A stretch of 64,000 nucleotides of DNA from an uncultured Candidatus Saccharibacteria bacterium (GTDB lineage Bacteria > Patescibacteriota > Saccharimonadia > Saccharimonadales > JACDBH01). Location of the stretch: contig CAZXOA010000001.1 in NCBI GenBank assembly GCA_964642275.1, forward strand, positions 12,729 through 76,728, given 5' to 3'. The position numbers and the translations under genes are program-made. Under the pieces are notes generated by a model. The model made no database searches and was not told the origin of the DNA. It saw only the letters and a list, made by a program, of their open reading frames with translations. Shown here in pieces: positions 53,530-64,000 of this stretch; the stretch's first letter is position 1, and every line of letters starts with the position of its first letter.

Positions 53530-55017
53530 TTGTGGGCTATACTGGAGACAGTATCTATGAGCAATACAAATACAGACATGCAAAAGCATTCATCTGAGTC
53601 GGCGCTCCCGGTTGGCGGCAAGAGCATTACGCCAAACTTGCGCGCACTGCGCCTGGCGCTGACAATCAGCGACCAGCTGCTGTCTATGGGCGTGTCGGCT
53701 GCCAGTGTGGTGTCACGGGCTCTTGATATAACCGAAGCGTACTGCAAAGACCCGGTCCATGTAGATATCAATTCGAACGTCATCATGCTCTCGCAGATTC
53801 GGGATCTCAAGAGCGAACCGCTGACGCTAATCCGACCTACCGCTCCGCGGACGGTTAATAGCCGGACCATTCATGCTATACAGGATTTGGTTTATCGTAT
53901 TCGTTCGCGCAAGCTGAGTCTGACTCAGGCAGAAGACGAGCTCGACAAAATACTGACTTCCCCCAAAGAGTACCCGACATGGCTTCGTTCGGCAGCGACA
54001 GCTGGTATTGCCACGGGTGTGAGCCTCATGTTTACTAGCAACTGGCGCGTTATTGTCACTACTTTTTTTGTTGCCTTTATCGTTGAGCGTTTTATGGACC
54101 TGCTTTATAAGAATTCGATGGCTACGTTTTTTCGCCAGGCTGCCGTTGCTGCTTTTGTGACCATCGGCGCGGCACTGATACATATGCTTGCCAGAAACGG
54201 CGTCGATTTTTTTGCCGGTATTGACCCGTCGTACATTGTTGTCGGCGGTATTATTATGCTGCTCTCCGGTCTGGCTATTGTCGGGGCTATTCAGGATGCT
54301 ATTGATGAATATTACGTGACGGCCAATGCGCGTATCCTCAAGGTCCTTATTCTGACCTCGGGCATTGTTGTCGGTGTTTTGATTGGCCTGTATGTTGCGC
54401 AGAAGCTGGGAATAGGCATCACTGTTTCTGCCGATTCGCTTGCCACGGGAGACGTTACCTTCAGGATTATCGGTGCAGGCATTGCCGCCGGCTCGTTTGC
54501 ACTCTCGACGCACACCCGGCTGCGTGCGGTCGTGTGGGCTGGCATGGTGGGATGCACCGCGCTCATCATTATGCTCCTTGCCAGAAACGCGGGCCTCTCG
54601 GCTATTCCTGCCAGTGGTATCGCTGCGCTCTGTGTAGGACTTATTGCTAAAACATTGTCGAGAGTGTGGCACACGTCATCATCTGGTATTGTGGCGGCTG
54701 GTATTATTCCGCTTGTTCCAGGTCTAGCGCTCTATAACGGCCTTATGCAGCTGGTGGATCACCCTACTGGCGACCCGCTGTTCTTTATGGGAATCGGTAC
54801 GCTGTTTACCGCCTTTGCCGTAGCACTGGCGATAGCAGCCGGTGCATCCTTTGGCACAACTCTCTCGCGTCCCTTTAGTCAGAGGCAGGTGCAAAAGCGC
54901 AACACAGGACCCTTCGCTGATTTTATGCGCGAACAGCTTGAGCTTGGAAAAACCCAGGCCGGCACGGTTCTGCGAAAGTCGGCAAAATACCTCAAATCAT
55001 CTTTTGATGATAAATAA
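53530..55017 (+). CDS. ThrE-family threonine/serine exporter (fused DUF1212 and DUF3815 halves)
   Basis: 495-aa polytopic protein with the architecture and size typical of ThrE. Confidence 0.6.
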   Translation: MWAILETVSMSNTNTDMQKHSSESALPVGGKSITPNLRALRLALTISDQLLSMGVSAASVVSRALDITEAYCKDPVHVDINSNVIMLSQIRDLKSEPLTLIRPTAPRTVNSRTIHAIQDLVYRIRSRKLSLTQAEDELDKILTSPKEYPTWLRSAATAGIATGVSLMFTSNWRVIVTTFFVAFIVERFMDLLYKNSMATFFRQAAVAAFVTIGAALIHMLARNGVDFFAGIDPSYIVVGGIIMLLSGLAIVGAIQDAIDEYYVTANARILKVLILTSGIVVGVLIGLYVAQKLGIGITVSADSLATGDVTFRIIGAGIAAGSFALSTHTRLRAVVWAGMVGCTALIIMLLARNAGLSAIPASGIAALCVGLIAKTLSRVWHTSSSGIVAAGIIPLVPGLALYNGLMQLVDHPTGDPLFFMGIGTLFTAFAVALAIAAGASFGTTLSRPFSQRQVQKRNTGPFADFMREQLELGKTQAGTVLRKSAKYLKSSFDDK

Positions 55018-55043
55018 ATGCCTCGGTGGTTTCTCGGATCAGT

Positions 55044-56798
55044 CTAGTTTTGATTGTAGACAGATTGCAAATGCGCCTGCAGCGTATCTGACTTTTCGGC
55101 AGACCAATTGTCTGGCTGAGTGACTGCCGCCCATGCATATACAGCGGTGTCGTCATAGTAATGCCCCCGGCCGATAGGTGCCGACGCGGCTATAGCTTGG
55201 TCTAGACCGATCTGCAAAAAACTGACAATTGGATACCAGCTGGTACGCGGCGATACGTCGGGTGCACGTGTTTCGTCAAGCCAGTCCGGCTTGTTGAACA
55301 GCAAATCGAAATTGAACCATACCACCGGATCAGAACCATGCTGCTGGAATAAAATTCTGGTGTCGCTTTGCCACTGTTGTTCTGCAGCCAGGATGTCATC
55401 TCGTGAGGAAACAAACTGCACGGTTCGGCCGCCGCGGTAGGTCGGCTGCCACTCCGGGCTGCCTGCATCGCGGGCATCGGTTATCTGCCGCCACAGCTCA
55501 GCTGCATTCGGCGTACCGACAAACAGGACACCGTCAACCGACCGGCGCATATCATTAACACCGCTAAAGGCCGACTGCCCGCCGAACGAACCAAGGCTCA
55601 GGCCATATACGATCAATTTTGGGCGCGATTCGCGCGGGAGCTCTGCCCATTCGTCAATCACGGCATCGTACAGCGCCCTGCCAGCCAGGCGGGCGTTTTC
55701 TTGGTCAACGAGGAATGAAATCCAGCTAGGCAGATAGGAGTATTGCTGCGACACAATAGCGGTATTTCCGCCGTGCATGTACTCAACAGCGTCCATGACA
55801 GTCGGATCAAGCCAGCCGGTGCCGGTTGCGGTGGCGAGTACTAGGAGGTCTCGCTCAAAAGCGCCGGTGCGTTTCAGTTCTGCCAGTGCCAGCTCGGCAC
55901 GGGCCTCTGCGCTATCGGCGCTGGCAAGCCCAGCATAGACGCGGATAGGCTCAAGACTTGCCTTTCCGCTAAACGTACTGATATCTTCTGCGGTTGGGCC
56001 GCTGCCCACAAAACCCCTGCCCTGAAAGCCGATGTGTTCCCACGGGATGAGCGATTCCGGACTGCCCGAACGCAGGCTGCTGACTGGTTGCACAACACCT
56101 TCTGGTGCGCGGTCGTCTCGCAGGCTGAAAGCATTGTTCACGAGACTGTACATATTTGACACCAACAGGCCGCTCAGTACCCAGTAGACAAACCAGGCGC
56201 TGACAACGATGGCAATACCCACACCAACCCGTTTTGGCAGGCGCTTGTGCAGGAGTACACTCAGCCGGTGGTTGATTGCCTGGATTCCCTTGCCTATCAG
56301 CAGCAGCGGCACAAAAACCGCCAGCGATACAATCGGCAGTACAATCATGTTCAGGTCGGTAAAGGCTCGTCCGGTATCCAGGATTTCGTGCACTTCATTC
56401 TGCCACATTTTGCCAAGAAACAGGTAGATGATAACCAGCAGCGGCAGCAGTACAATCGCACCCCGCCAAGCCCATTGGCGCACCTGTAGCGAAAACTTAT
56501 ATTCGGTAAACCAGCGGATAAGCGAGCTCAGGCCCACGCCGATTGCGTAGCCGGCAGTCAGTGAAAGCCCGCTGATAACGCTCTGCAGCCACCACGGCCG
56601 GGGCAGCAGCGACGGAAACAAGGATATGCAAAAGAACAGGATACCCAGTACTAATCCGCCGTACACCGGCCGCCATCCCAGAACACGCTCAATAATTCGT
56701 GCTGGCCAAGCCTTGGCCTGTGGCGATTTTTGACGCCTTTTCATATCAGTATCATACCAGAGACAACACTGATTAGAAATGTTGCTTCTTAGGGGCAA
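55044..56798 (-). CDS. membrane-anchored alpha/beta-hydrolase family protein (Abhydrolase_9-like)
   Basis: N-terminal multi-TM region plus a C-terminal hydrolase domain with a GLSLGS nucleophile elbow. Confidence 0.5.
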   Translation of the reverse strand: MPLRSNISNQCCLWYDTDMKRRQKSPQAKAWPARIIERVLGWRPVYGGLVLGILFFCISLFPSLLPRPWWLQSVISGLSLTAGYAIGVGLSSLIRWFTEYKFSLQVRQWAWRGAIVLLPLLVIIYLFLGKMWQNEVHEILDTGRAFTDLNMIVLPIVSLAVFVPLLLIGKGIQAINHRLSVLLHKRLPKRVGVGIAIVVSAWFVYWVLSGLLVSNMYSLVNNAFSLRDDRAPEGVVQPVSSLRSGSPESLIPWEHIGFQGRGFVGSGPTAEDISTFSGKASLEPIRVYAGLASADSAEARAELALAELKRTGAFERDLLVLATATGTGWLDPTVMDAVEYMHGGNTAIVSQQYSYLPSWISFLVDQENARLAGRALYDAVIDEWAELPRESRPKLIVYGLSLGSFGGQSAFSGVNDMRRSVDGVLFVGTPNAAELWRQITDARDAGSPEWQPTYRGGRTVQFVSSRDDILAAEQQWQSDTRILFQQHGSDPVVWFNFDLLFNKPDWLDETRAPDVSPRTSWYPIVSFLQIGLDQAIAASAPIGRGHYYDDTAVYAWAAVTQPDNWSAEKSDTLQAHLQSVYNQN

Positions 56799-56878
56799 AA
56801 AACACCAAATACTTGCTATATATTGACAAGTATGATATAATTATAAGATAGGCTCATATTTAACACCTATCTGTATTC

Positions 56879-57184
56879 ATGTACAAAGATCAGACACCCA
56901 CCCTACCTAATCCTGATTCACGTCCAGAAGATTGGATTGACTATGCAGCGTGTGCTACTGCAGAGTTTTCGTTTGATGGATTTCCGGAGGCAAAGAGTCG
57001 CAAAAGCGCGTTTGGCTATAAGCACGTTGCGACTGCGGCAAGCATCTGTGCGGACTGCGTCGTTTTCAGCCAGTGTTTGGAAGAGCTGCAAGACACCCGT
57101 CGGACCGATCGTAACACTGGCTCAGTCCAAGCCGGTCACTTCGTCGGCAAAAATGGCGGGTTATTCAATCTCTTAGACCAATAG
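56879..57184 (+). CDS. WhiB-like (Wbl) Fe-S transcription factor
   Basis: W-x3-AAC...FFP-like N-terminal motif (WIDYAACATAEFSFDGFPE) and the Cys pattern C-x30-C-x2-C-x5-C (ICADCVVFSQC). Confidence 0.6.
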   Translation: MYKDQTPTLPNPDSRPEDWIDYAACATAEFSFDGFPEAKSRKSAFGYKHVATAASICADCVVFSQCLEELQDTRRTDRNTGSVQAGHFVGKNGGLFNLLDQ

Positions 57185-57216
57185 TTTGTCCCCATTAATT
57201 TACCGCAAGAAGCCAG

Positions 57217-57351
57217 CTACTGGCCGCGCGTAATCTGCTCGATAATAATCACCTGCTCATCTATAGCTTGTTTTTCGGCCGGCGTGAGCGGCCGTTCGGG
57301 CTTTGGCCGGAATAACTTTTTCAGTGCGCTTAATAATTTAGACATAGTCAT
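57217..57351 (-). CDS. 44-aa peptide ORF directly downstream of the GIY-YIG gene
   Basis: Reads MTMSKLLSALKKLFRPKPERPLTPAEKQAIDEQVIIIEQITRGQ. It starts 13 nt after the GIY-YIG stop. Not in the supplied ORF track (<60 aa). Confidence 0.25.
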   Translation of the reverse strand: MTMSKLLSALKKLFRPKPERPLTPAEKQAIDEQVIIIEQITRGQ

Positions 57352-57363
57352 TACAAAACTTAT

Positions 57364-57651
57364 CTAGTGGCCGCCTTCTACGATATACCCCAGGTCCTTT
57401 AGCTTTACCGCATGTCTATACTCCATATCTAGCGCCTCTTGCCTGGTTTTCAGGTGTGGAATATGTTCGTACAAATCAGGACGGAGCTCAAGTTGCATTG
57501 CGCTGCGCAGACAGGGTGCGGAGTGCGTGCCTTCTTTGTGTTGCTTTAGCCTCTCCTCTGGTTTTAGGTAGGTCTGACCGACATATACATTGTATGGATC
57601 GCCGTCTATCTCTAGAACATAAATACAGTATGTGTATTTTTTGTTTGCCAT
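57364..57651 (-). CDS. stand-alone GIY-YIG nuclease domain protein (95 aa)
   Basis: GIY-YIG motifs: YCIYVLE ... YVGQT ... R (RLKQH) ... E (EALDME). Its start is coupled to the upstream gene's stop, 1 nt apart. Confidence 0.6.
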   Translation of the reverse strand: MANKKYTYCIYVLEIDGDPYNVYVGQTYLKPEERLKQHKEGTHSAPCLRSAMQLELRPDLYEHIPHLKTRQEALDMEYRHAVKLKDLGYIVEGGH

Positions 57652-57652
57652 A

Positions 57653-58636
57653 CTATTCCGTCACCAGTTCAGGATTGAATAATTGGACCGTATGATCCCT
57701 TGGTGTTATGTCGCCAATAGTGGTAAGCTTGGTTATCTCAAGTTTTGGCTTCTTAAGCTCATCATCAGCATCTAGCTTCTTCTGTGTACGGATAATCGTA
57801 GCTTCTATTTCAATCTCTTTGTCAAACAGTGAATCCTTTATATCGCGTATCTCTTTGCTCTTGAGCGTGGATGTCAAAATATGACCACCATACACGAACC
57901 CCAGTGTCCCGGTATTGGTGTTTGCACGTGATAAAGTACCTTTTAATTTCAGATTTTCGCCATGCTGCCACTCTGGGAACACGACCCCGTCATCATCAGC
58001 ATTGTTGCTGCCAAAATAGGGTTTACTATCGGCATCGATTCTAACTATAGTGTCTGACTGTGTTGTCTCGCCGGCCTCACCTATAAAAAGTTGCGTGTCG
58101 TTATCCACGACGCTTGTTATCTTCTTGAATATGTCCTTAGGAGCTTTAGCGTAAGTCTCAAGTTCATCCTTAGTAACGGTCAGCTCTTCTCCAGAAGGGT
58201 TTATTATTACAATGTTGTCAGCGCCAGTTATCTTGGTTTCTTCTGGATGAAATTGGTGTTTGCCCATCACGCCCATATGCTTGGCGATTCTGGCGGTCGA
58301 CTTTATCTTCTTTACCGCTTTATCAAGGATCTCCTTTGATGTTTTATCTCCAACGTCATTCTTGGCCATTTGTGTTCCTGCTGAAATCGCGTAGGCGGCA
58401 AGCCCACCTCCAATCACAACGCTTACCAGCCAAGCTATTAGTGAGCCTGATTCTAGTCGTATCTCGATATCATAATTATCTTTTAACTCTGGGTGCTCTG
58501 AGTTGATAAAATACTTGGTTGTTTTTTCGATGCCAGACAGAATATTATGCACGTCAGTCAGTGTTATTTTGCCGTCCTCAACACGCTTGCCTTCAAGTTT
58601 AATAAAGTTCAGGTTGTCATTTTCGGCTTCACCCAT
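57653..58636 (-). CDS. hypothetical single-pass membrane protein (327 aa) with its own promoter
   Basis: TM helix LIAWLVSVVIGGGLAAYAISAG. No recognisable domain. AT-rich. Leaderless consensus promoter at 58643-58671. Confidence 0.4.
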   Translation of the reverse strand: MGEAENDNLNFIKLEGKRVEDGKITLTDVHNILSGIEKTTKYFINSEHPELKDNYDIEIRLESGSLIAWLVSVVIGGGLAAYAISAGTQMAKNDVGDKTSKEILDKAVKKIKSTARIAKHMGVMGKHQFHPEETKITGADNIVIINPSGEELTVTKDELETYAKAPKDIFKKITSVVDNDTQLFIGEAGETTQSDTIVRIDADSKPYFGSNNADDDGVVFPEWQHGENLKLKGTLSRANTNTGTLGFVYGGHILTSTLKSKEIRDIKDSLFDKEIEIEATIIRTQKKLDADDELKKPKLEITKLTTIGDITPRDHTVQLFNPELVTE

Positions 58637-58642
58637 GTTGAC

Positions 58643-58671
58643 AGTTTAACAATAACCAATCCTACTTGCAA
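58643..58671 (-). promoter_or_regulatory. consensus promoter TTGCAA-17-TAAACT on the minus strand for the 327-aa gene, implying a leaderless transcript
   Basis: Minus strand reads ttgcaa-gtaggattggttattgt-taaact-gtcaac-ATG, so the ATG lies at the predicted TSS. Confidence 0.4.
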
Positions 58672-58702
58672 TCCGGCCAATAGTATTGTATTAACGTAAG
58701 CG

Positions 58703-61700
58703 TTATGACATTTCGATAACGGCGATTTCTTCGGGGGTTAGGTTGTAGAGTTGGTAGACTAGTTGGTTGATTTTGGCTTCTTGGGTGGAGATGTCGGCAG
58801 CGGGGTTAGTGGTTTTGACGTCGATGATCTCTGTGACGAGCTGCTCTATCCTAGACTCCAGCTCATCACTACCCGGGCTTGGCTTCGGTATCGGGAAGTC
58901 CGCTACGACATCTCCCTTCAACTCAAGCACATCGCCTTTTACGGCACCTTTATTTTTGAGCCAGACTAGCGCTAGCTTTGAGTTTAGCAATGCTAAACAT
59001 AGCTCTAGGCTCCTTTTTGATGAGTCATACACGAAGTAGGTGTCAGTGCCAGAAAACCACTCGTCTTTAATGAGCGAGAATATATTGGTCTTTGCTCTGT
59101 ATGGAAATACGATTTTATCACCGGTAAACATGCGAACATCTCTTGGCCATAGAAGTGTGTACCAGGCTTGTTTTGAGCGTTTGATCTGGGCTCTGTCGGC
59201 AAGAGCATCGCGGTGCGATTCAAGGTACTTGTATATTTGCGGATTATCTTCTGGCACAAAATCTTTATCAACATAAAGCACACTCTTGGTAGCAAGAGTC
59301 CGGGTTATGTATTTCTTGACATCCGAGTTCTTGAAAAATGGCTTTATGTATTGACGCTCCGATTCGCTGATTTTATCAAAAAAGTCCGGTCGGCCATCAA
59401 ATATAAAAACCGTATTATTACCAGTTTCCAGTCCTTTGCTTACTTTATAGTAGTCCTTTACCCGAGGGTGCTTCAGTGTAATGTCTTCCATTAGCGTATT
59501 GACTAGGTTGTCTCTAAGGTCTATAAAACCGCGACTGTTGTATATGTTAGCCTGGGATATGTTGTAGTATTCGGTGTCTTCATCTATGCCGCTTAGGATT
59601 TGCGGTATAGCAGACGATGAGTCGCCAGGATAGCCCTTCCTGCTCGTTATGATTGTCTGGCAGTCTACATCGTGTTTGCCTTTTCGTAGCTGCGTAATCA
59701 GGTTATGCTGACCGATGGCGCTCTCAAATATCTTCAATTCATGGAAGTTAATGAAACGCAAAGGAGTTGCTCGTGTCTTATAATCTGCACGCAGCTTATC
59801 CGCGTTGGTTGCCGTTAGGTAGTAATTGGTCGAGATGAATGTTAGGACTCCGTTGTCGTGCAGGATATCTAGTCCAAGATGGAAGAAGAAGTAGAACAAG
59901 TCCATCTTGCCCTTGTAGAAGCGTTGGCCTAGGGATGTTGTCTTAAGGTTATCAAACATCGCCTTATGTCCTTTTTCTCCAACATACGGCGGGTTGGCTA
60001 TGACAATATCAAAGCCATCTATACCAAACATCCACTCGGCATCAAACCAGTCCGTTGGCTTGTCTTCAAACGGTTCCCAGCGTGAAAGCATTGTGTATCT
60101 ACCGGAAGCTTGGCCTCCGAATTCATCAATTGTTTTCATGAACATTTGTTTTTGAAGCCGGTCAAACTCGTTTCGCAAAGCTTCGCGCTGGCCAACATTT
60201 GCAGTAAAGTACTCGTCACGTATCCTGCGTAGTGCATCTATGTGGTCGGTGTCTTCTAGTAGCGAGCTTTGTTTTGCTGCAGTTTCGGCAGGCAAACCAA
60301 CGAGTGAGTTGGCAGTGACAAACTTGAAGTCCAGGTTTGGCAGTGGACGGATGCCTCTGTTGTCTTTACTGTCATCAACTTCTTCTTCAATAATCAGTGT
60401 TAGGAAACAGCGGAGCTTTGCGATCTCTGTCGCTATTGTTTGGATATCTACGCCAAAAATGGACTCGCGTATGACGCCAAGCTTTCGCAGGTAATCATAG
60501 TTTTCATTACGATACTTTTCCTCTATATCACGGCGGAGTTCAGGGGAAGTGATGTGTTTGAGCTGATTTTCCAGCCATCGCTCTGCGTGTTCATCAACCT
60601 GCTGGAGTATGTAGACAACCTTTTGCAGGATGCCTATCGGGAACGCACCGGAGCCACAGGCTGGATCGAGTATGGTTAGGCCGGCCAGCGCGGTCACAAC
60701 CTTTTCCTTTTCGCCGTCCGTCAGTTCACGCTCTTTGTCGTCTTCTTGACCCCAACTAATGAGAGCTTTGAGCTTTTCTTCGTCAACACCAGTCTTACAC
60801 TTTAGGCATTCCAGCAGCGAGCTGTCTACCATGTAGTCCACTATTTCGCGTGGCGTGTAGAAGCTGCCAGTGGACTTGCGCGCAGACTCGCCCGTTTCTG
60901 GATTTATTTCAGCCAACAGGTTCTCAAAAATGCGCCCCAGCATTTCCGGGTCGATTGAAAGGTCTACATCGTACGAAGTGTTTTCATCTACCGTAAAGTT
61001 ATACTGTTCGAGGATAGAGAACAGTTCGATAAACCAGCCATCGGGTATAGATACAAGGCCAGGATTGCCGCCGCCGGTGAAACTATTCTGCTGGTAGTAG
61101 TCGCCTGCGTGGGGGCTAAACAGGCCGCCATTCAAATACGGGACAGTTGAGAACGGTACTTCGCGTAGTGATTCGTGGCGTTGCCCAACGCGCTTGTTGA
61201 GCAACTCAAAGAACAATGGCTCAAGAATACTGTGGTAGTAATCGGCATGTGCGGCTACTGCGCTGAGCGACAATAAATCATCGGGTACAATTGGTATTCC
61301 GGCATTACTTTTCTTTTCTTTGAGAAACCAACTAAAAACTATACGACCTATCAGCCTAACCGCAAATTCCTGATGCTCGTTACCCGTATCAGCTTTGCCA
61401 TGAATCTTTAATTGCCCCGGATATTCTTTGATACCACGCTTGCCGCCAACTAGCTTCGTGAAGAGATCGGCCACCGAGGCATAGAACTGCTTATTGACTA
61501 CTTCGACAGAGAAGCGCTCTTGCAGCTGCTTGATATCTTCGACGCGGCCTTTTTCTATCAGGTACTTGTAAGGTGTGACAGTCTTTGCACCTACGCCCAA
61601 TAGGTATGAATAGCGGCGCGGGTTGCTGTCTTTTTTGACCACTTTGCCATCTTTGATCTGTAGCGTAGATGTTAGCAGTGAGAGTCGCCAGTGATCGTTG

Positions 61701-61981
61701 CCGTCGTGAAAGGCTATGATGGCGTTGCGGATTTGGTGGTTACGTAGAACTTTAAAAGCGGCTTGGGTGATTGCGATGCGCTTGCCCGAGTCGGTCTCCT
61801 CACACTCTGCTTCAAGTACCGTAACATCGAAATCCCTCGACTTTGATTCGCCGAGTTTCGTTACGCTGGTAAGGATTGAACCGTCAGCGCGCACTTGGCG
61901 TTCGTCTCTTTGATAATCTGGCAAGAAGCCTTTCAGAAAGGTGTCAAAAAGTTCTTTGTTATAGGGTTTATCTAATATCAT
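58703..61981 (-). CDS. MmeI/PglX-like gamma-class N6-adenine DNA methyltransferase (Type IIG/IIL-like, 1092 aa)
   Basis: MmeI-like N-terminal domain (VPYLNGGLFSPH; TGSFYTPREIVDYMV), SAM motif I ILDPACGSGAFPIG, catalytic motif IV VIANPPYVGEKG, and a roughly 450-aa C-terminal TRD-like region. ATGA overlap with the upstream helicase gene. Confidence 0.85.
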   Translation of the reverse strand: MILDKPYNKELFDTFLKGFLPDYQRDERQVRADGSILTSVTKLGESKSRDFDVTVLEAECEETDSGKRIAITQAAFKVLRNHQIRNAIIAFHDGNDHWRLSLLTSTLQIKDGKVVKKDSNPRRYSYLLGVGAKTVTPYKYLIEKGRVEDIKQLQERFSVEVVNKQFYASVADLFTKLVGGKRGIKEYPGQLKIHGKADTGNEHQEFAVRLIGRIVFSWFLKEKKSNAGIPIVPDDLLSLSAVAAHADYYHSILEPLFFELLNKRVGQRHESLREVPFSTVPYLNGGLFSPHAGDYYQQNSFTGGGNPGLVSIPDGWFIELFSILEQYNFTVDENTSYDVDLSIDPEMLGRIFENLLAEINPETGESARKSTGSFYTPREIVDYMVDSSLLECLKCKTGVDEEKLKALISWGQEDDKERELTDGEKEKVVTALAGLTILDPACGSGAFPIGILQKVVYILQQVDEHAERWLENQLKHITSPELRRDIEEKYRNENYDYLRKLGVIRESIFGVDIQTIATEIAKLRCFLTLIIEEEVDDSKDNRGIRPLPNLDFKFVTANSLVGLPAETAAKQSSLLEDTDHIDALRRIRDEYFTANVGQREALRNEFDRLQKQMFMKTIDEFGGQASGRYTMLSRWEPFEDKPTDWFDAEWMFGIDGFDIVIANPPYVGEKGHKAMFDNLKTTSLGQRFYKGKMDLFYFFFHLGLDILHDNGVLTFISTNYYLTATNADKLRADYKTRATPLRFINFHELKIFESAIGQHNLITQLRKGKHDVDCQTIITSRKGYPGDSSSAIPQILSGIDEDTEYYNISQANIYNSRGFIDLRDNLVNTLMEDITLKHPRVKDYYKVSKGLETGNNTVFIFDGRPDFFDKISESERQYIKPFFKNSDVKKYITRTLATKSVLYVDKDFVPEDNPQIYKYLESHRDALADRAQIKRSKQAWYTLLWPRDVRMFTGDKIVFPYRAKTNIFSLIKDEWFSGTDTYFVYDSSKRSLELCLALLNSKLALVWLKNKGAVKGDVLELKGDVVADFPIPKPSPGSDELESRIEQLVTEIIDVKTTNPAADISTQEAKINQLVYQLYNLTPEEIAVIEMS

Positions 61982-64000
61982 TTGCGCAAATCTTCTGTAA
62001 ACATGATAATTTCACTTACACTGTCGATGGCTTCGGCTTTTTGCTTGATAACATTGAGGTAGTGTGGGGTGAACTTTTGCTTTAATTCCTGAACGGTATC
62101 ACCTAAATTTTCTTCATCTAGACGTAATTGGGAAATATATTTGAGCTCACCGTTCGACAAATCGTCGAATTCACGGATGGCGTCATAAAGATCAAACAAG
62201 TAGTCACGTTCCGGTGGGTATGTTTCTTTGAGTGCCTCGACAATTTTCAGAGCCTCTGCCCTGCGCCCCTGTATCTTCGGCAGGGGGTGCGGAGCAGTAA
62301 TACGTTTGCGCAGTATTTCAAACTTTTTATCCAGCTGCGCGTCACCTTTGAGAGACTTTTCTTCTCTGTCGGCTTTAAAGTGTGGCAACACGAATTCTGG
62401 TGACACGATTTCAGCCCCTAAATCGTACCCTGTGGCCAAGGCAAACATTATTCCATTGCCACGTTTGGCAAATGATATAGATACATTCTTGGCTTTGCCT
62501 TCTCTCACAATACGCGTGCGTTCCGGAATATTCTGAACTTCATTCAATAAATTCTTGTCATGCTTGATCGAGTTATAGATGTTGCGATATTCGTTATCCC
62601 AAGAACGCTCGCTAGATGCTTCGTCTGCATCATTGTATGTACTCTTGAAGTAGCTCTTCAGATCTTCATCTGGTGTAAGTGTGCGGGTATCACTGCCGAC
62701 AATGTTATTGATGAGTAACATTTTGAGTGTGCTTATGCCTTTAACGTTGGCGATGTCTTCACCCACATCAGTCGGGAAGAAATTGTAGATGTAAATGTTG
62801 TCAAACATCTTCTGGTTGATACGGTTGATACGACCTATGCGCTGGACGACTCGGGTTGGGTTGTACGGTATGTCGTAGTTGATAATGATGCCGGCACGGT
62901 GGAGGTTGAAACCTTCTGATAGTGCATCGGTAGCCACAATGATATCGTAGTCGTTTTTCTGATCGCCATCGTACGAGGCATCGAAGTTTTCCGACACAAT
63001 CTTTTTCAGTTCGTTGCCGGATGAACCGGTGTAGAGCAACGTTCGCTCAAGGCCATGCTCTCGCAAATTTTTAGCCACATATTCTGCCGTGTCTGCATAG
63101 CCAGAGAAGATAACAATTTTGCGCTCTGGGTTTTCTGCGAGCAACTCTTGGAGCTTTTGTTCTGTACGCTCTTGCTTTGGGTCGTCGCCAGTCAGGCCGC
63201 GGGCAAACCAATCTTGCTTAATCTTTTGGAGTAGTTCTAGGTCTTTGCGTGCAAATATTGCAAATGAGTCTTCGAAGAGTTCTCGAGGGATAGGGATCGC
63301 AGTTTTTTTGATAGCGTCTATATCAATTTCTTCACCGCTATCAATAAGGCCCATGATCTCGTCTATGGAATCGAATTCTTCTAGGTCATCGGGGTCGACT
63401 AACTCACCTTTTTTCAGAATAGGCACATATCCCTTATCCCACCATTTGAGAATGATGTCATGCGATCGAATCATCTTGTCAAGTGTGGACTGAAAGGCAT
63501 ACTTTGAGCTCTCGAAGCGTTGCACGAGCAACCGGCGCATGAACTGAGCCAGGTTTGCTTGAGCAGTCTTGAGGTCGGTATCGTCGAAGAAGTCCTTGTA
63601 CTTTTCTACAAATTCATCACGATCTCTGATGTATGATGCCGATTGGTAGCGTGCGCCATTAAAGCCATTCTCCGCATCTGTCAATTTTTCTAGCGTACTA
63701 ACATACAGTTGGCGAATATTGCCTAGGTCATATTCAACCAATTCTGGTCCAACTACTTCCGGGAACTCGATATTTTGGTTGTGGAGGTCGTCGGCATACT
63801 CTTTGATTTCTTTGAGGTCAATACGTGACCGTCGAATAATCACTGGTTCGATAAGTAGGCGCAGGTCATGACTAAGTTTTTGCAGCTCGGTCTTAACCTC
63901 ATCAGTCATATTCTTTTTGCCGAGTCTCTCTAGTTTTTTGTATTTACTGATTAAATCGTCGAATCTCAGTCCAAGATTATCAACCGAGTTAATGGTCGAA
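61978..64000 (-). CDS. SNF2-family (SF2) helicase, N-terminally truncated by the window edge
   Basis: Helicase C-terminal lobe with SNF2-type motif VI (DIIVATDALSEGFNLHRAGIIINYDIPYNPTRVVQRIGRINRINQ). The reading frame stays open upstream of the annotated Met at 63909 to position 64000. Confidence 0.7.
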   Translation of the reverse strand, partial: STINSVDNLGLRFDDLISKYKKLERLGKKNMTDEVKTELQKLSHDLRLLIEPVIIRRSRIDLKEIKEYADDLHNQNIEFPEVVGPELVEYDLGNIRQLYVSTLEKLTDAENGFNGARYQSASYIRDRDEFVEKYKDFFDDTDLKTAQANLAQFMRRLLVQRFESSKYAFQSTLDKMIRSHDIILKWWDKGYVPILKKGELVDPDDLEEFDSIDEIMGLIDSGEEIDIDAIKKTAIPIPRELFEDSFAIFARKDLELLQKIKQDWFARGLTGDDPKQERTEQKLQELLAENPERKIVIFSGYADTAEYVAKNLREHGLERTLLYTGSSGNELKKIVSENFDASYDGDQKNDYDIIVATDALSEGFNLHRAGIIINYDIPYNPTRVVQRIGRINRINQKMFDNIYIYNFFPTDVGEDIANVKGISTLKMLLINNIVGSDTRTLTPDEDLKSYFKSTYNDADEASSERSWDNEYRNIYNSIKHDKNLLNEVQNIPERTRIVREGKAKNVSISFAKRGNGIMFALATGYDLGAEIVSPEFVLPHFKADREEKSLKGDAQLDKKFEILRKRITAPHPLPKIQGRRAEALKIVEALKETYPPERDYLFDLYDAIREFDDLSNGELKYISQLRLDEENLGDTVQELKQKFTPHYLNVIKQKAEAIDSVSEIIMFTEDLRK

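What the first reader, a model, noticed from the sequence alone, without database searches (positions are those of the whole stretch)
57217..64000. Low-GC defense-like island: SNF2 helicase coupled to an MmeI/PglX-like N6A methyltransferase, then a membrane protein, mini GIY-YIG nuclease and peptide module
Five co-oriented minus-strand genes.

First, a truncated SNF2-type helicase is translationally coupled (ATGA overlap) to a 1092-aa MmeI-like gamma-class adenine methyltransferase.

Second, a separately promoted trio follows: a 327-aa single-pass membrane protein, a 95-aa GIY-YIG nuclease, and a 44-aa peptide.

The region is visibly more AT-rich than the flanking housekeeping genes, which suggests horizontal acquisition.

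MmeI-like methyltransferases normally act alone (Type IIG/IIL) or within BREX as PglX, and SNF2 helicases pair with adenine methyltransferases in DISARM class 1. Here none of the obligatory partners (PglZ, BrxC, BrxL, DrmA/B/C) lies downstream. A trans-acting GIY-YIG nuclease plus a membrane protein is not part of any named restriction or BREX architecture that I know. Either the rest of a known system lies beyond 64000, or this is an undescribed helicase-dependent modification/restriction arrangement.
Basis: partly seen in the sequence, partly recalled or inferred. Interest (0 to 1): 0.85.

Follow-up and report, generated by a model that had tools for sequence, protein, structure and literature searches.

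The report
Two-gene helicase-nuclease plus methylase restriction module
The region holds a widespread but unnamed two-gene restriction-modification-like module, a DNA motor fused to a nuclease plus an adenine methylase with a swappable DNA-reading domain. The three small genes after it are unrelated passengers, not parts of a new five-gene system.

Summary
The five minus-strand ORFs, the ATGA overlap and the low GC are real.

The contig beyond base 64000 was recovered (L001, identical over 9,826 nt). It shows the helicase is a complete 1,100-aa protein with an N-terminal HKD (phospholipase-D) nuclease domain and an SNF2 motor. No PglZ, BrxC, BrxL, DrmA, DrmB, DUF499 or DUF3780 gene lies on either side.

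Helicase and methylase form a self-contained pair. In 78 loci from many phyla the methylase gene follows the helicase directly in 64 of the 65 that have room. The catalytic core is conserved (50-77% identity) and the C-terminal target-recognition domain is mosaic (13-35%). No third gene recurs.

The pair scores below every curated cut-off for BREX and DISARM. The best reading is an ATP-dependent restriction-modification system that works like Type III or Type ISP, built from an SNF2 motor and an HKD nuclease. I found no experimental test of it.

The 327-aa protein, the GIY-YIG protein and the 44-aa peptide are absent from 78, 78 and 77 of those loci. They are also absent from a partly syntenic relative that carries the pair (L096). 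They are separate cargo.

The 327-aa protein belongs to an unannotated family (PHROG 32975). It has a conserved hydrophobic segment and a C-terminal OB fold.

Verdict: a new variant of a known kind, of moderate interest.

The parts
61978..64000 (-). C-terminal 673 codons (residues 428-1100) of a 1100-aa HKD-nuclease/SNF2 helicase. The N-terminal 427 residues (HKD motif, Walker A, DEAH) lie beyond the window, at L001:6702-7982.
   Evidence: Open frame to the window end. Helicase_C E 9e-18. Full protein in L001 has PLDc_2 at 21-206, SNF2-rel_dom and Helicase_C. H145/K147/G170-S171-x-N173, GLGKS 303-307, DEAH 372-375 and QRxGR 813-817 are invariant in 14 homologues.
58703..61981 (-). 1092-aa gamma-class N6-adenine DNA methyltransferase. 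It has an N-terminal alpha/beta domain (about 1-130), a helical region, the methylase core (motif I DPACGSGA 439-446; NPPY 663-666) and a variable TaqI_C-like target-recognition domain (about 700-1092).
   Evidence: Pfam Eco57I and weak MmeI_Mtase/TaqI_C hits. PADLOC Type IIG models from residue 155 on. AlphaFold model pLDDT 82. Foldseek matches to CamA, M.BseCI, PglX/BrxX, BpuSI and MmeI. Core 50-77% against TRD 13-35% identity.
61978..61981 (-). ATGA stop/start overlap coupling helicase and methylase.
   Evidence: Sequence CAAATGATA. The same or a gap of at most about 30 nt is seen in most of the 64 other loci.
57653..58636 (-). 327-aa protein of an unannotated family. It has a conserved hydrophobic segment (residues 63-91) and a C-terminal OB fold (about 225-310). 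It is separate cargo, not part of the pair.
57364..57651 (-). 95-aa stand-alone GIY-YIG domain protein. Its start lies 1 nt after the stop of the 327-aa gene.
   Evidence: Pfam GIY-YIG 26.2 bits against cut-off 22.6. Junction TAGTATG. No homologue in any of the other loci or in the phage records.
57217..57351 (-). 44-aa conserved small protein of unknown function.
   Evidence: An 81%-identical 42-aa ORF in L010 is again the last gene after a helicase-methylase pair. Similarity is confined to the coding part.
56879..57184 (+). 101-aa WhiB-like protein (C25...C57-x2-C60-x5-C66), convergent with the island genes.
   Evidence: Pfam Whib 22.6 bits against cut-off 23.6. PHROG WhiB families down to E 2e-8.
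56823..56852 (.). One arm of a 30-nt inverted repeat (26/30 complementary). The other arm is at L001:4992-5021, equivalent to position 66961-66990. Both arms are promoter-like and bracket the low-GC stretch.
   Evidence: 0 of 200 shuffles give such a pair.

Best explanation
Genes 61978->64000 (continuing to 65280 on the contig) and 58703-61981 form a self-contained two-subunit, ATP-dependent restriction-modification-like module.

The methylase subunit reads an asymmetric DNA site with its variable C-terminal domain. It methylates an adenine (N6) to mark host DNA.

The second subunit is translated from an overlapping reading frame and presumably bound to the first. It carries an SNF2-type double-strand DNA translocase and an N-terminal HKD nuclease.

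On unmodified foreign DNA the motor would be licensed by the methylase/recognition subunit and pull DNA through using ATP. Each chain has only one HKD motif. I therefore infer that cutting requires two nuclease domains to meet, for example when two translocating complexes collide or dimerise. This would resemble Type ISP and Type III enzymes in logic, with different parts.

Shown here: domain content, intact motifs, strict gene pairing, mosaic recognition domain, defence-island and mobile context, cross-phylum spread.

Inferred: physical complex, methylation protecting the host, translocation, cleavage on HKD dimerisation, anti-phage function.

The 327-aa, GIY-YIG, 44-aa and WhiB-like genes are independent cargo in the same low-GC stretch.
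For: - Contig extension: a full 1100-aa helicase with PLDc_2, SNF2 and Helicase_C domains. The neighbours are a G5 protein, two unknowns and a UvrD-PD-(D/E)XK helicase, with no defence partners.
- All catalytic motifs are invariant.
- The methylase gene starts at or within about 30 nt of the helicase stop in most of the 64 loci that carry it. Only L022 has room and no methylase.
- Neighbour clustering finds no third gene in more than 8 loci.
- Methylase core identity is 50-77% and TRD identity 13-35%.
- Seven loci carry an invertase. In the four where it was checked (L011, L037, L045, L072) an inverted second TRD copy lies between methylase and invertase. This is typical of restriction-modification specificity switching.
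- Neighbours elsewhere are SoFic, bSEFIR, Schlafen/AlbA_2, recombinases and integrases.
- About 4,000 helicase homologues at 60-86% identity occur in Saccharibacteria, Clostridia, Elusimicrobiota, Dehalococcoidia, Thermotogae, Pelagibacter and an archaeon.
- The island genes have GC below every background ORF.
- The HKD-SNF2 plus N6-methylase combination is read as an RM-like effector and protector in Type-2 BREX-related systems (PMC12839542).
Against: - I found no experimental test of this two-gene module. Defence, methylation and cleavage are all inferred.
- A physical complex was not modelled.
- The methylase N-terminal domain (1-130) has an alpha-beta-beta-beta-alpha-beta-type layout. It could be a nuclease-like fold, so the methylase chain might have its own activity.
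- DISARM, which also combines an SNF2 protein, a PLD nuclease and a methylase, does not need its PLD nuclease (PMC9142583). Cleavage by the HKD domain should therefore not be taken for granted.
- GC3 deviation is modest.
Confidence: 0.62

Rival explanations
1. All five genes form one system in which the membrane protein senses or anchors, and the GIY-YIG protein is the trans-acting nuclease for a helicase-methylase core that lacks one.
For: The genes are co-oriented and tightly packed: a 66-nt gap with no terminator-like site, then gaps of 1 nt and 12 nt. All share the low GC. The slot just after the methylase carries other small co-oriented genes in relatives: L010 has 187 aa plus 845 aa, L094 has 329 aa plus 66 aa, and L092 has 304 aa plus bSEFIR. 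327-aa homologues sit next to an AlwI R-M system and next to a Schlafen-type helicase plus MazG.
Against: The core does have a nuclease, the HKD domain. The 327-aa and GIY-YIG proteins are in 0 of 78 other helicase loci. They are also absent from the three closest relatives, L094-L096. 327-aa homologues in 11 other loci have no helicase, methylase or GIY-YIG gene nearby.
Confidence: 0.1
2. The pair is a fragment or degenerate remnant of a larger known system (class 1 DISARM, BREX, or a DUF499-centred BREX-related/Hma system) whose other genes are elsewhere or lost.
For: The best PADLOC and NCBIfam hits after 'HKD+Snf2' are DrmD, BrxH, DrmMI and PglX. Type-2 BREX-related systems use the same N-terminal HKD-SNF2 helicase with an N6-methylase.
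Against: No DrmA, DrmB, PglZ, BrxC, BrxL, DUF499 or DUF3780 lies within 6.7 kb upstream or 7 kb downstream. None recurs in 78 loci. Scores are far below curated cut-offs: DrmD 153 against 610, PglX 64 against 500. Both genes are intact and highly conserved as a pair across phyla, which does not fit a remnant.
Confidence: 0.06
3. The methylase is itself a bifunctional Type IIG/IIL-like enzyme that cuts with its own N-terminal domain. The HKD-SNF2 protein is an accessory, or a separate Type IV-like or abortive-infection-like effector.
For: PADLOC Type IIG restriction-methylase models give the best hits, E 4e-79. The overall fold resembles BpuSI, MmeI and DrdV. The N-terminal 130 residues form a compact alpha/beta domain of unknown function.
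Against: The Type IIG models align only from residue 155 on. Residues 1-200 match no Pfam family or PDB sequence. Only D26 and E57 are conserved acidic residues. There is no conserved (D/E)xK: the sequence is E57-A-E-C. Strict pairing with the helicase argues for one machine.
Confidence: 0.1
4. The pair is not a defence system. It is an epigenetic or DNA-transaction module: an orphan regulatory methylase plus an SNF2 remodeller or repair helicase.
For: The closest solved relative of the methylase half is CamA, an orphan regulatory methylase. The best solved helicase relative is RapA.
Against: There is an intact HKD nuclease motif, a hypervariable TRD, invertible TRD copies, and a defence-island and mobile context. 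The distribution is patchy and cross-phylum at 60-86% identity.
Confidence: 0.07

Closest known systems
Type-2 DUF499-centred BREX-related (BR) systems, relatives of Hma (Rakesh & Krishnan, NAR 2026, PMC12839542)
   Same: An SNF2 helicase with an N-terminal HKD endonuclease is paired with an N6-adenine methylase. It is interpreted as an RM-like effector plus self-protection. Schlafen-HATPase-wHTH genes are frequent neighbours.
   Different: Those systems are defined by a DUF499 AAA+ ATPase, and in 98% of cases a DUF3780 gene. Neither is present here or recurs in the 78 loci. The PADLOC HmaA model matches only the Helicase_C part (E 1.5e-21).
Class 1 DISARM (DrmA, DrmB, DrmC, DrmD, DrmMI)
   Same: It combines an SNF2 helicase (DrmD-like), a PLD/HKD nuclease (DrmC-like) and an N6-adenine methylase (DrmMI-like).
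   Different: The core DrmA helicase and the DUF1998 protein DrmB are absent. Here the PLD domain is fused to the SNF2 protein. DrmD scores 153 bits against a cut-off of 610 (definition from PMC9142583).
Type ISP restriction-modification enzymes (LlaGI, LlaBIII)
   Same: The set of activities is the same: nuclease, SF2 motor, gamma-class N6A methylase and C-terminal TRD. It is also expected to recognise an asymmetric site (PMC3874165).
   Different: Type ISP is one polypeptide with an Mrr-type PD-(D/E)xK nuclease and a Type I-like motor. Here there are two polypeptides, an HKD nuclease and an SNF2 motor. No sequence match to Type ISP chains was found in the PDB search.
Type III restriction-modification (Mod + Res)
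   Same: A two-gene layout: a methylase/recognition subunit plus a helicase-nuclease subunit.
   Different: From my own knowledge, not tested here: Type III Mod is a beta-class methylase and Res carries a PD-(D/E)xK nuclease. Shown here: a gamma-class motif order (motif I at 439-446 before NPPY at 663-666), an HKD nuclease at the N-terminus and an SNF2 motor.
'C3a139, HKD+Snf2' family (Shah et al. 2018, PMC6546367) in PADLOC
   Same: It is the best PADLOC hit for the helicase (E 3e-49) and has the same HKD plus Snf2 architecture.
   Different: It was described only as a protein sometimes encoded near type III CRISPR-Cas cassettes. No methylase partner or function was defined.
SauUSI (Type IV)
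   Same: An N-terminal PLD nuclease is fused to an ATP-dependent helicase domain (PMC12707154).
   Different: SauUSI has an SRA-type reader of modified cytosine, no methylase partner, and cuts modified DNA.

Membership tests
BREX | PglZ phosphatase and BrxC ATPase genes in the locus | tested here: not met
   No such Pfam or PADLOC hit in any gene from L001:1 to 17807. No recurrent third gene in 78 loci.
BREX | PglX-type methylase above the NCBIfam cut-off | tested here: not met
   BREX_1_MTaseX scores 64.3 bits against a cut-off of 500. The fold is related: Foldseek E 3e-23 to PglX/BrxX.
DISARM class 1 | DrmA helicase plus DrmB (DUF1998) | tested here: not met
   Absent from the contig. The only DrmA hits are the generic helicase core of the SNF2 protein.
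DISARM class 1 | DrmD SNF2 helicase (equivalog) | tested here: not met
   NF038317 scores 153 bits against a cut-off of 610.
Type-2 BREX-related / Hma | DUF499 AAA+ ATPase and DUF3780 protein | tested here: not met
   No such domain in the genes flanking the pair. No conserved large ATPase neighbour in 78 loci.
Type-2 BREX-related / Hma | SNF2 helicase with an N-terminal HKD nuclease, next to an N6-methylase | tested here: met
   PLDc_2 at 21-206, then SNF2 and Helicase_C. An Eco57I-type methylase lies adjacent.
Type ISP R-M | Single polypeptide with an Mrr-type nuclease | tested here: not met
   Two ORFs with an ATGA overlap. The nuclease is HKD.
Type ISP R-M | Gamma-class N6A methylase followed by a C-terminal TRD | tested here: met
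   Motif I lies before NPPY. TaqI_C-like variable C-terminus. CamA/M.BseCI-like fold.
Type ISP / Type III R-M | ATP-driven translocation or diffusion, and cleavage that needs two sites | not testable with these tools
   Needs biochemistry.
Type IIG/IIL (MmeI-like) | Active PD-(D/E)xK nuclease in the same chain as the methylase | tested here: inconclusive
   Residues 1-130 form an alpha/beta domain. There is no Pfam or PDB sequence match and no conserved (D/E)xK. The domain could not be fold-searched on its own.
GIY-YIG nuclease superfamily (95-aa protein) | Pfam PF01541 above the gathering score | tested here: met
   26.2 bits against 22.6. By my reading of the sequence, a CIY...YVG pair, R34 and a conserved Glu are present.
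WhiB-like (101-aa protein) | Pfam PF02467 above the gathering score; four-Cys motif | tested here: inconclusive
   22.6 bits against 23.6. The C-x31-C-x2-C-x5-C pattern is visible in the sequence. PHROG WhiB families reach E 2e-8.

The most novel reading that the evidence does not exclude
The HKD-SNF2 plus gamma-methylase/TRD pair is an experimentally untested class of two-subunit ATP-dependent restriction-modification enzyme. It uses a chromatin-remodeller-type motor and a phospholipase-D-type nuclease, and it is abundant in Saccharibacteria and gut Clostridia. In addition, the slot just after the methylase gene recruits lineage-specific auxiliary effectors that are co-transcribed with the pair and act as a second layer. 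Here those are a membrane-anchored OB-fold protein and a mini GIY-YIG nuclease; elsewhere they are bSEFIR or other unknowns.
Probability: 0.2. Interest if true: 0.65.

Novelty: new variant of a known kind. Interest (0 to 1): 0.4.

Why it matters
If the pair works as proposed, it is a minimal, very widespread restriction-modification architecture with thousands of homologues across bacterial phyla and in at least one archaeon. Current defence annotation (PADLOC, NCBIfam) does not name it, and RefSeq labels the genes only as 'helicase-related protein' and 'N-6 DNA methylase'.

It would link BREX-related/Hma, DISARM and Type ISP/III systems. That link would show which parts, such as the DUF499 ATPase or DrmAB, are additions to a simpler motor-nuclease-methylase core.

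It is common in Saccharibacteria (CPR) genomes, where barriers to DNA uptake limit genetic work. Knowing its recognition motifs could therefore have practical use.

For this window specifically, the result removes a false lead: there is no evidence for a five-gene system with a trans-acting GIY-YIG nuclease.

Tried and rejected
- E. coli genomes: no match to the region. Phage records: only an atpD match.
- A first genome-contig scan with the flanking Abhydrolase_9 protein found nothing.
- The host organism could not be named. Cluster look-ups carry no names, and AtpD is not on record for a contig look-up. The nearest relatives of the pair are Saccharibacteria MAGs. A WhiB-like gene and the flanks do not settle the taxon.
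- The 327-aa protein has no hit in viral contigs or phage records, and only 8 metagenome loci without a common neighbour. Two Vibrio replicon hits have no annotation and no cassette-type repeats. A profile search against PDB sequences found nothing. Pfam matched none of 48 family members.
- The 329-aa gene that follows the closest methylase relative (L094/L095) looked like a 327-aa homologue by length, but it is unrelated.
- The afdb50 fold library was unavailable.
- The methylase N-terminal domain could not be fold-searched alone. Sequence searches of it were empty.
- Literature searches found no paper that tests the two-gene module. The library lacks most subscription journals and REBASE, so this is not proof of absence.
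- The island holds no tRNA gene and no flanking direct repeats that would mark an integration site.

Full report
**Observation**

- The helicase frame stays open to the last bases of the window.
- Helicase stop and methylase start overlap as ATGA. The 327-aa and GIY-YIG genes are 1 nt apart. The GIY-YIG and 44-aa genes are 12 nt apart.
- Helicase, methylase, 327-aa and GIY-YIG genes have 43-47% GC. That is lower than any of 44 long background ORFs in the window (mean 52.1%, minimum 47.7%). GC3 deviates less.
- Pfam gives Helicase_C, Eco57I (with weak N6_Mtase, MmeI_Mtase and TaqI_C) and GIY-YIG. It gives nothing for the 327-aa and 44-aa products. A convergent 101-aa ORF at 56879-57184 is WhiB-like.

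**Beyond the window**

An exact-protein look-up found the same contig in a public assembly (L001). Its reverse complement is identical to window 54175-64000 over 9,826 nt, so window position = 71982 - L001 position.
- The helicase is a complete 1,100-aa protein: PLDc_2 (HKD) domain at 21-206, then SNF2-related and Helicase_C domains.
- Upstream lie a G5-domain protein, two unknown proteins and a high-GC UvrD-PD-(D/E)XK helicase. Downstream of the trio lie the WhiB-like gene and an Abhydrolase_9 protein.
- No gene matches PglZ, BrxC, BrxL, DrmA, DrmB, DUF499 or DUF3780.
What lies there is the system's own nuclease domain.

**The pair is a module**

- The helicase has about 4,000 homologues at E <= 1e-10. 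Many are 60-86% identical across phyla.
- A scan of one genome per species returned 78 loci. They come from Saccharibacteria (closest, 82-85%), Clostridia, Christensenellaceae, Elusimicrobiota, Dehalococcoidia, Thermotogae, Pelagibacter and a methanogen.
- A methylase homologue starts at or just after the helicase stop in 64 of them. The others end too early, except L022, where a BspA-type gene follows instead.
- Clustering all neighbouring ORFs shows no other family in more than 8 loci. The sporadic neighbours are Schlafen/AlbA_2-HATPase regulators, Fic (PADLOC SoFic), serine recombinases, integrases and a bSEFIR protein. This is defence-island and mobile-element company.
- HKD (H145, K147, GSxN 170-173), Walker A (303-307), DEAH (372-375) and motif VI (813-817) are invariant in the helicase. 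Motif I (439-446) and NPPY (663-666) are invariant in the methylase.
- Residues 1-670 of the methylase are 50-77% identical to homologues. Residues 700-1092 are only 13-35% identical, even where the core is 75% identical.
- Seven loci carry a small invertase downstream of the methylase. In the four where it was checked, an inverted second copy of the C-terminal domain lies between them.
- Mosaic and switchable recognition domains are the signature of restriction-modification specificity subunits.

**Structure**

- The methylase model (pLDDT 82) matches CamA and M.BseCI best (TaqI-like methylase plus TRD). Over its whole length it then matches PglX/BrxX, BpuSI, MmeI and DrdV.
- Its first 130 residues form a compact alpha/beta domain with no sequence relatives in Pfam or the PDB. 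The domain has no conserved (D/E)xK motif.
- I could not fold-search that domain alone, so a nuclease-like fold is not excluded.

**Family membership**

- Curated models reject DISARM DrmD (153 against 610 bits), BREX PglX (64 against 500) and the 'phospholipase D anti-phage protein' (138 against 1100).
- The best PADLOC hit for the helicase is 'C3a139, HKD+Snf2'. Shah et al. listed this family only as an occasional neighbour of type III CRISPR cassettes.
- The closest described system is the Type-2 BREX-related (Hma-like) class. It has the same N-terminal HKD-SNF2 helicase with an N6-methylase, but it is defined by a DUF499 ATPase and a DUF3780 protein. Both are absent here.
- In function the pair resembles Type ISP and Type III enzymes, with a different nuclease, motor and methylase class.
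- RefSeq annotates a plasmid example only as 'SNF2-related protein' plus 'N-6 DNA methylase'.
- I found no experimental study of the two-gene form. The library searched is incomplete.

**Mechanism proposed**

- The methylase/TRD subunit recognises an asymmetric site and methylates adenine.
- The HKD-SNF2 subunit, made from the overlapping frame, binds it, translocates on unmodified DNA using ATP and cuts.
- Each chain has a single HKD motif. From general knowledge of Nuc and BfiI, HKD nucleases form their active site from two motifs. I therefore infer that cleavage needs two subunits to meet.
- DISARM does not need its PLD nuclease, so cleavage is the least secure step.

**The trio**

- The 327-aa and GIY-YIG proteins occur in none of the 78 helicase loci.
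- They also do not occur in the three closest relatives of this island (L094-L096). L096 keeps helicase, methylase, a homologue of the 136-aa neighbour and the Abhydrolase_9 gene, yet it has none of the trio and no WhiB-like gene.
- Conversely, 327-aa homologues sit in unrelated contexts: after an AlwI R-M system, beside a Schlafen-type helicase plus MazG, and elsewhere. They are never with a helicase, methylase or GIY-YIG gene.
- The 327-aa family comprises 227 representative clusters, nearly all 310-350 aa. It has no Pfam domain in 48 members and only 'hypothetical' names. It matches PHROG 32975 of unknown function.
- The 44-aa peptide is a real gene. An 81%-identical copy closes another helicase-methylase island in a Saccharimonadaceae MAG, after different cargo.
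- The slot after the methylase thus holds different genes in different genomes. This keeps open a weak 'auxiliary effector' reading, but there is no evidence of a functional link.

**Island**

- A 30-nt inverted repeat (26/30; none in 200 shuffles) lies at window 56823-56852 and at L001:4992-5021. It brackets the low-GC stretch.
- Both arms look like promoters. It is absent from the other 92 loci.
- Whether it marks element ends or a duplicated promoter is unresolved.

**Verdict**

There is an unnamed helicase-dependent restriction-modification arrangement, but it is a two-gene module with its own nuclease. It is widespread and a variant of known kinds.
- The membrane protein, GIY-YIG nuclease and peptide are not part of it.

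Noticed in passing
window 56823-56852 and L001:4992-5021: A 30-nt inverted repeat (26/30 complementary; 0 of 200 shuffles) brackets the roughly 10-kb low-GC stretch. Both arms look like extended -10 promoters pointing inward. The window arm precedes the WhiB-like gene. It may mark element ends or be a duplicated promoter or operator.
   Followed up: partly
L011, L037, L042, L045, L046, L048, L072 (about 0-2 kb after the methylase gene): A resolvase/invertase of about 200 aa lies downstream of the methylase. In L011, L037, L045 and L072 an inverted ORF between them encodes a second copy of the methylase C-terminal recognition domain (36-48% identity). This is probably an invertible specificity switch. 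My script picked the helicase instead of the methylase in L042, L046 and L048, so those three were not tested.
   Followed up: partly
window 57217-57351; L010:19646-19774: The 44-aa peptide has an 81%-identical homologue in a Saccharimonadaceae MAG. There too it is the last gene after a helicase-methylase pair, but behind different cargo (187 aa plus 845 aa) and before an HTH_3 gene. DNA similarity is limited to the coding part.
   Followed up: partly
window 57653-58636: The 327-aa protein founds an unannotated cross-phylum family: 227 clusters at 50% identity, PHROG 32975 and no Pfam. It has a conserved hydrophobic segment and a C-terminal OB fold. In three contexts, counting this window, it lies next to R-M or other defence-type genes.
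   Followed up: partly
window 56879-57184 (+): A WhiB-like 101-aa protein with the C-x31-C-x2-C-x5-C motif matches phage WhiB PHROG families. It scores just below the Pfam cut-off. Its presence is odd if the host is a Saccharibacteria-like organism, as the nearest relatives of the island suggest. The host taxon could not be determined.
   Followed up: partly
L010:16549-19646; L094:4491-5833; L092:12660-14559: The position directly after the methylase gene holds different co-oriented genes in different genomes: 187 aa plus 845 aa unknowns; 329 aa plus 66 aa unknowns; a 304-aa unknown plus a bSEFIR/TIR protein. It looks like a variable cargo slot.
   Followed up: partly
L022:1994-9565: This is the only locus with room after the helicase gene but no methylase. 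A 1371-aa BspA-type leucine-rich-repeat gene on the other strand follows instead. It may be decay or a mis-assembly.
   Followed up: partly
L001:1192-4119 (outside the window, equivalent to 67863-70790): The UvrD-PD-(D/E)XK (AddA/AdnB-like) helicase-nuclease next to the island has unusually high GC (59.3%, z +3.3; GC3 75%) for this genome.
   Followed up: no
L001:4982-5071 (outside the window): A promoter-like site is followed within about 35 nt by a strong terminator-like hairpin (GGCCGCC...GGCGG plus a T-run), between two convergent genes. It could be a very short transcript or only a shared terminator.
   Followed up: no
L096:4714-15672 compared with window 55044-64000: In a 40%-GC relative the helicase and methylase are 76% identical to those of the window. 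The neighbouring Abhydrolase_9 and 136-aa proteins are only 48% identical. This fits recent transfer of the pair, strong constraint on it, or both.
   Followed up: partly
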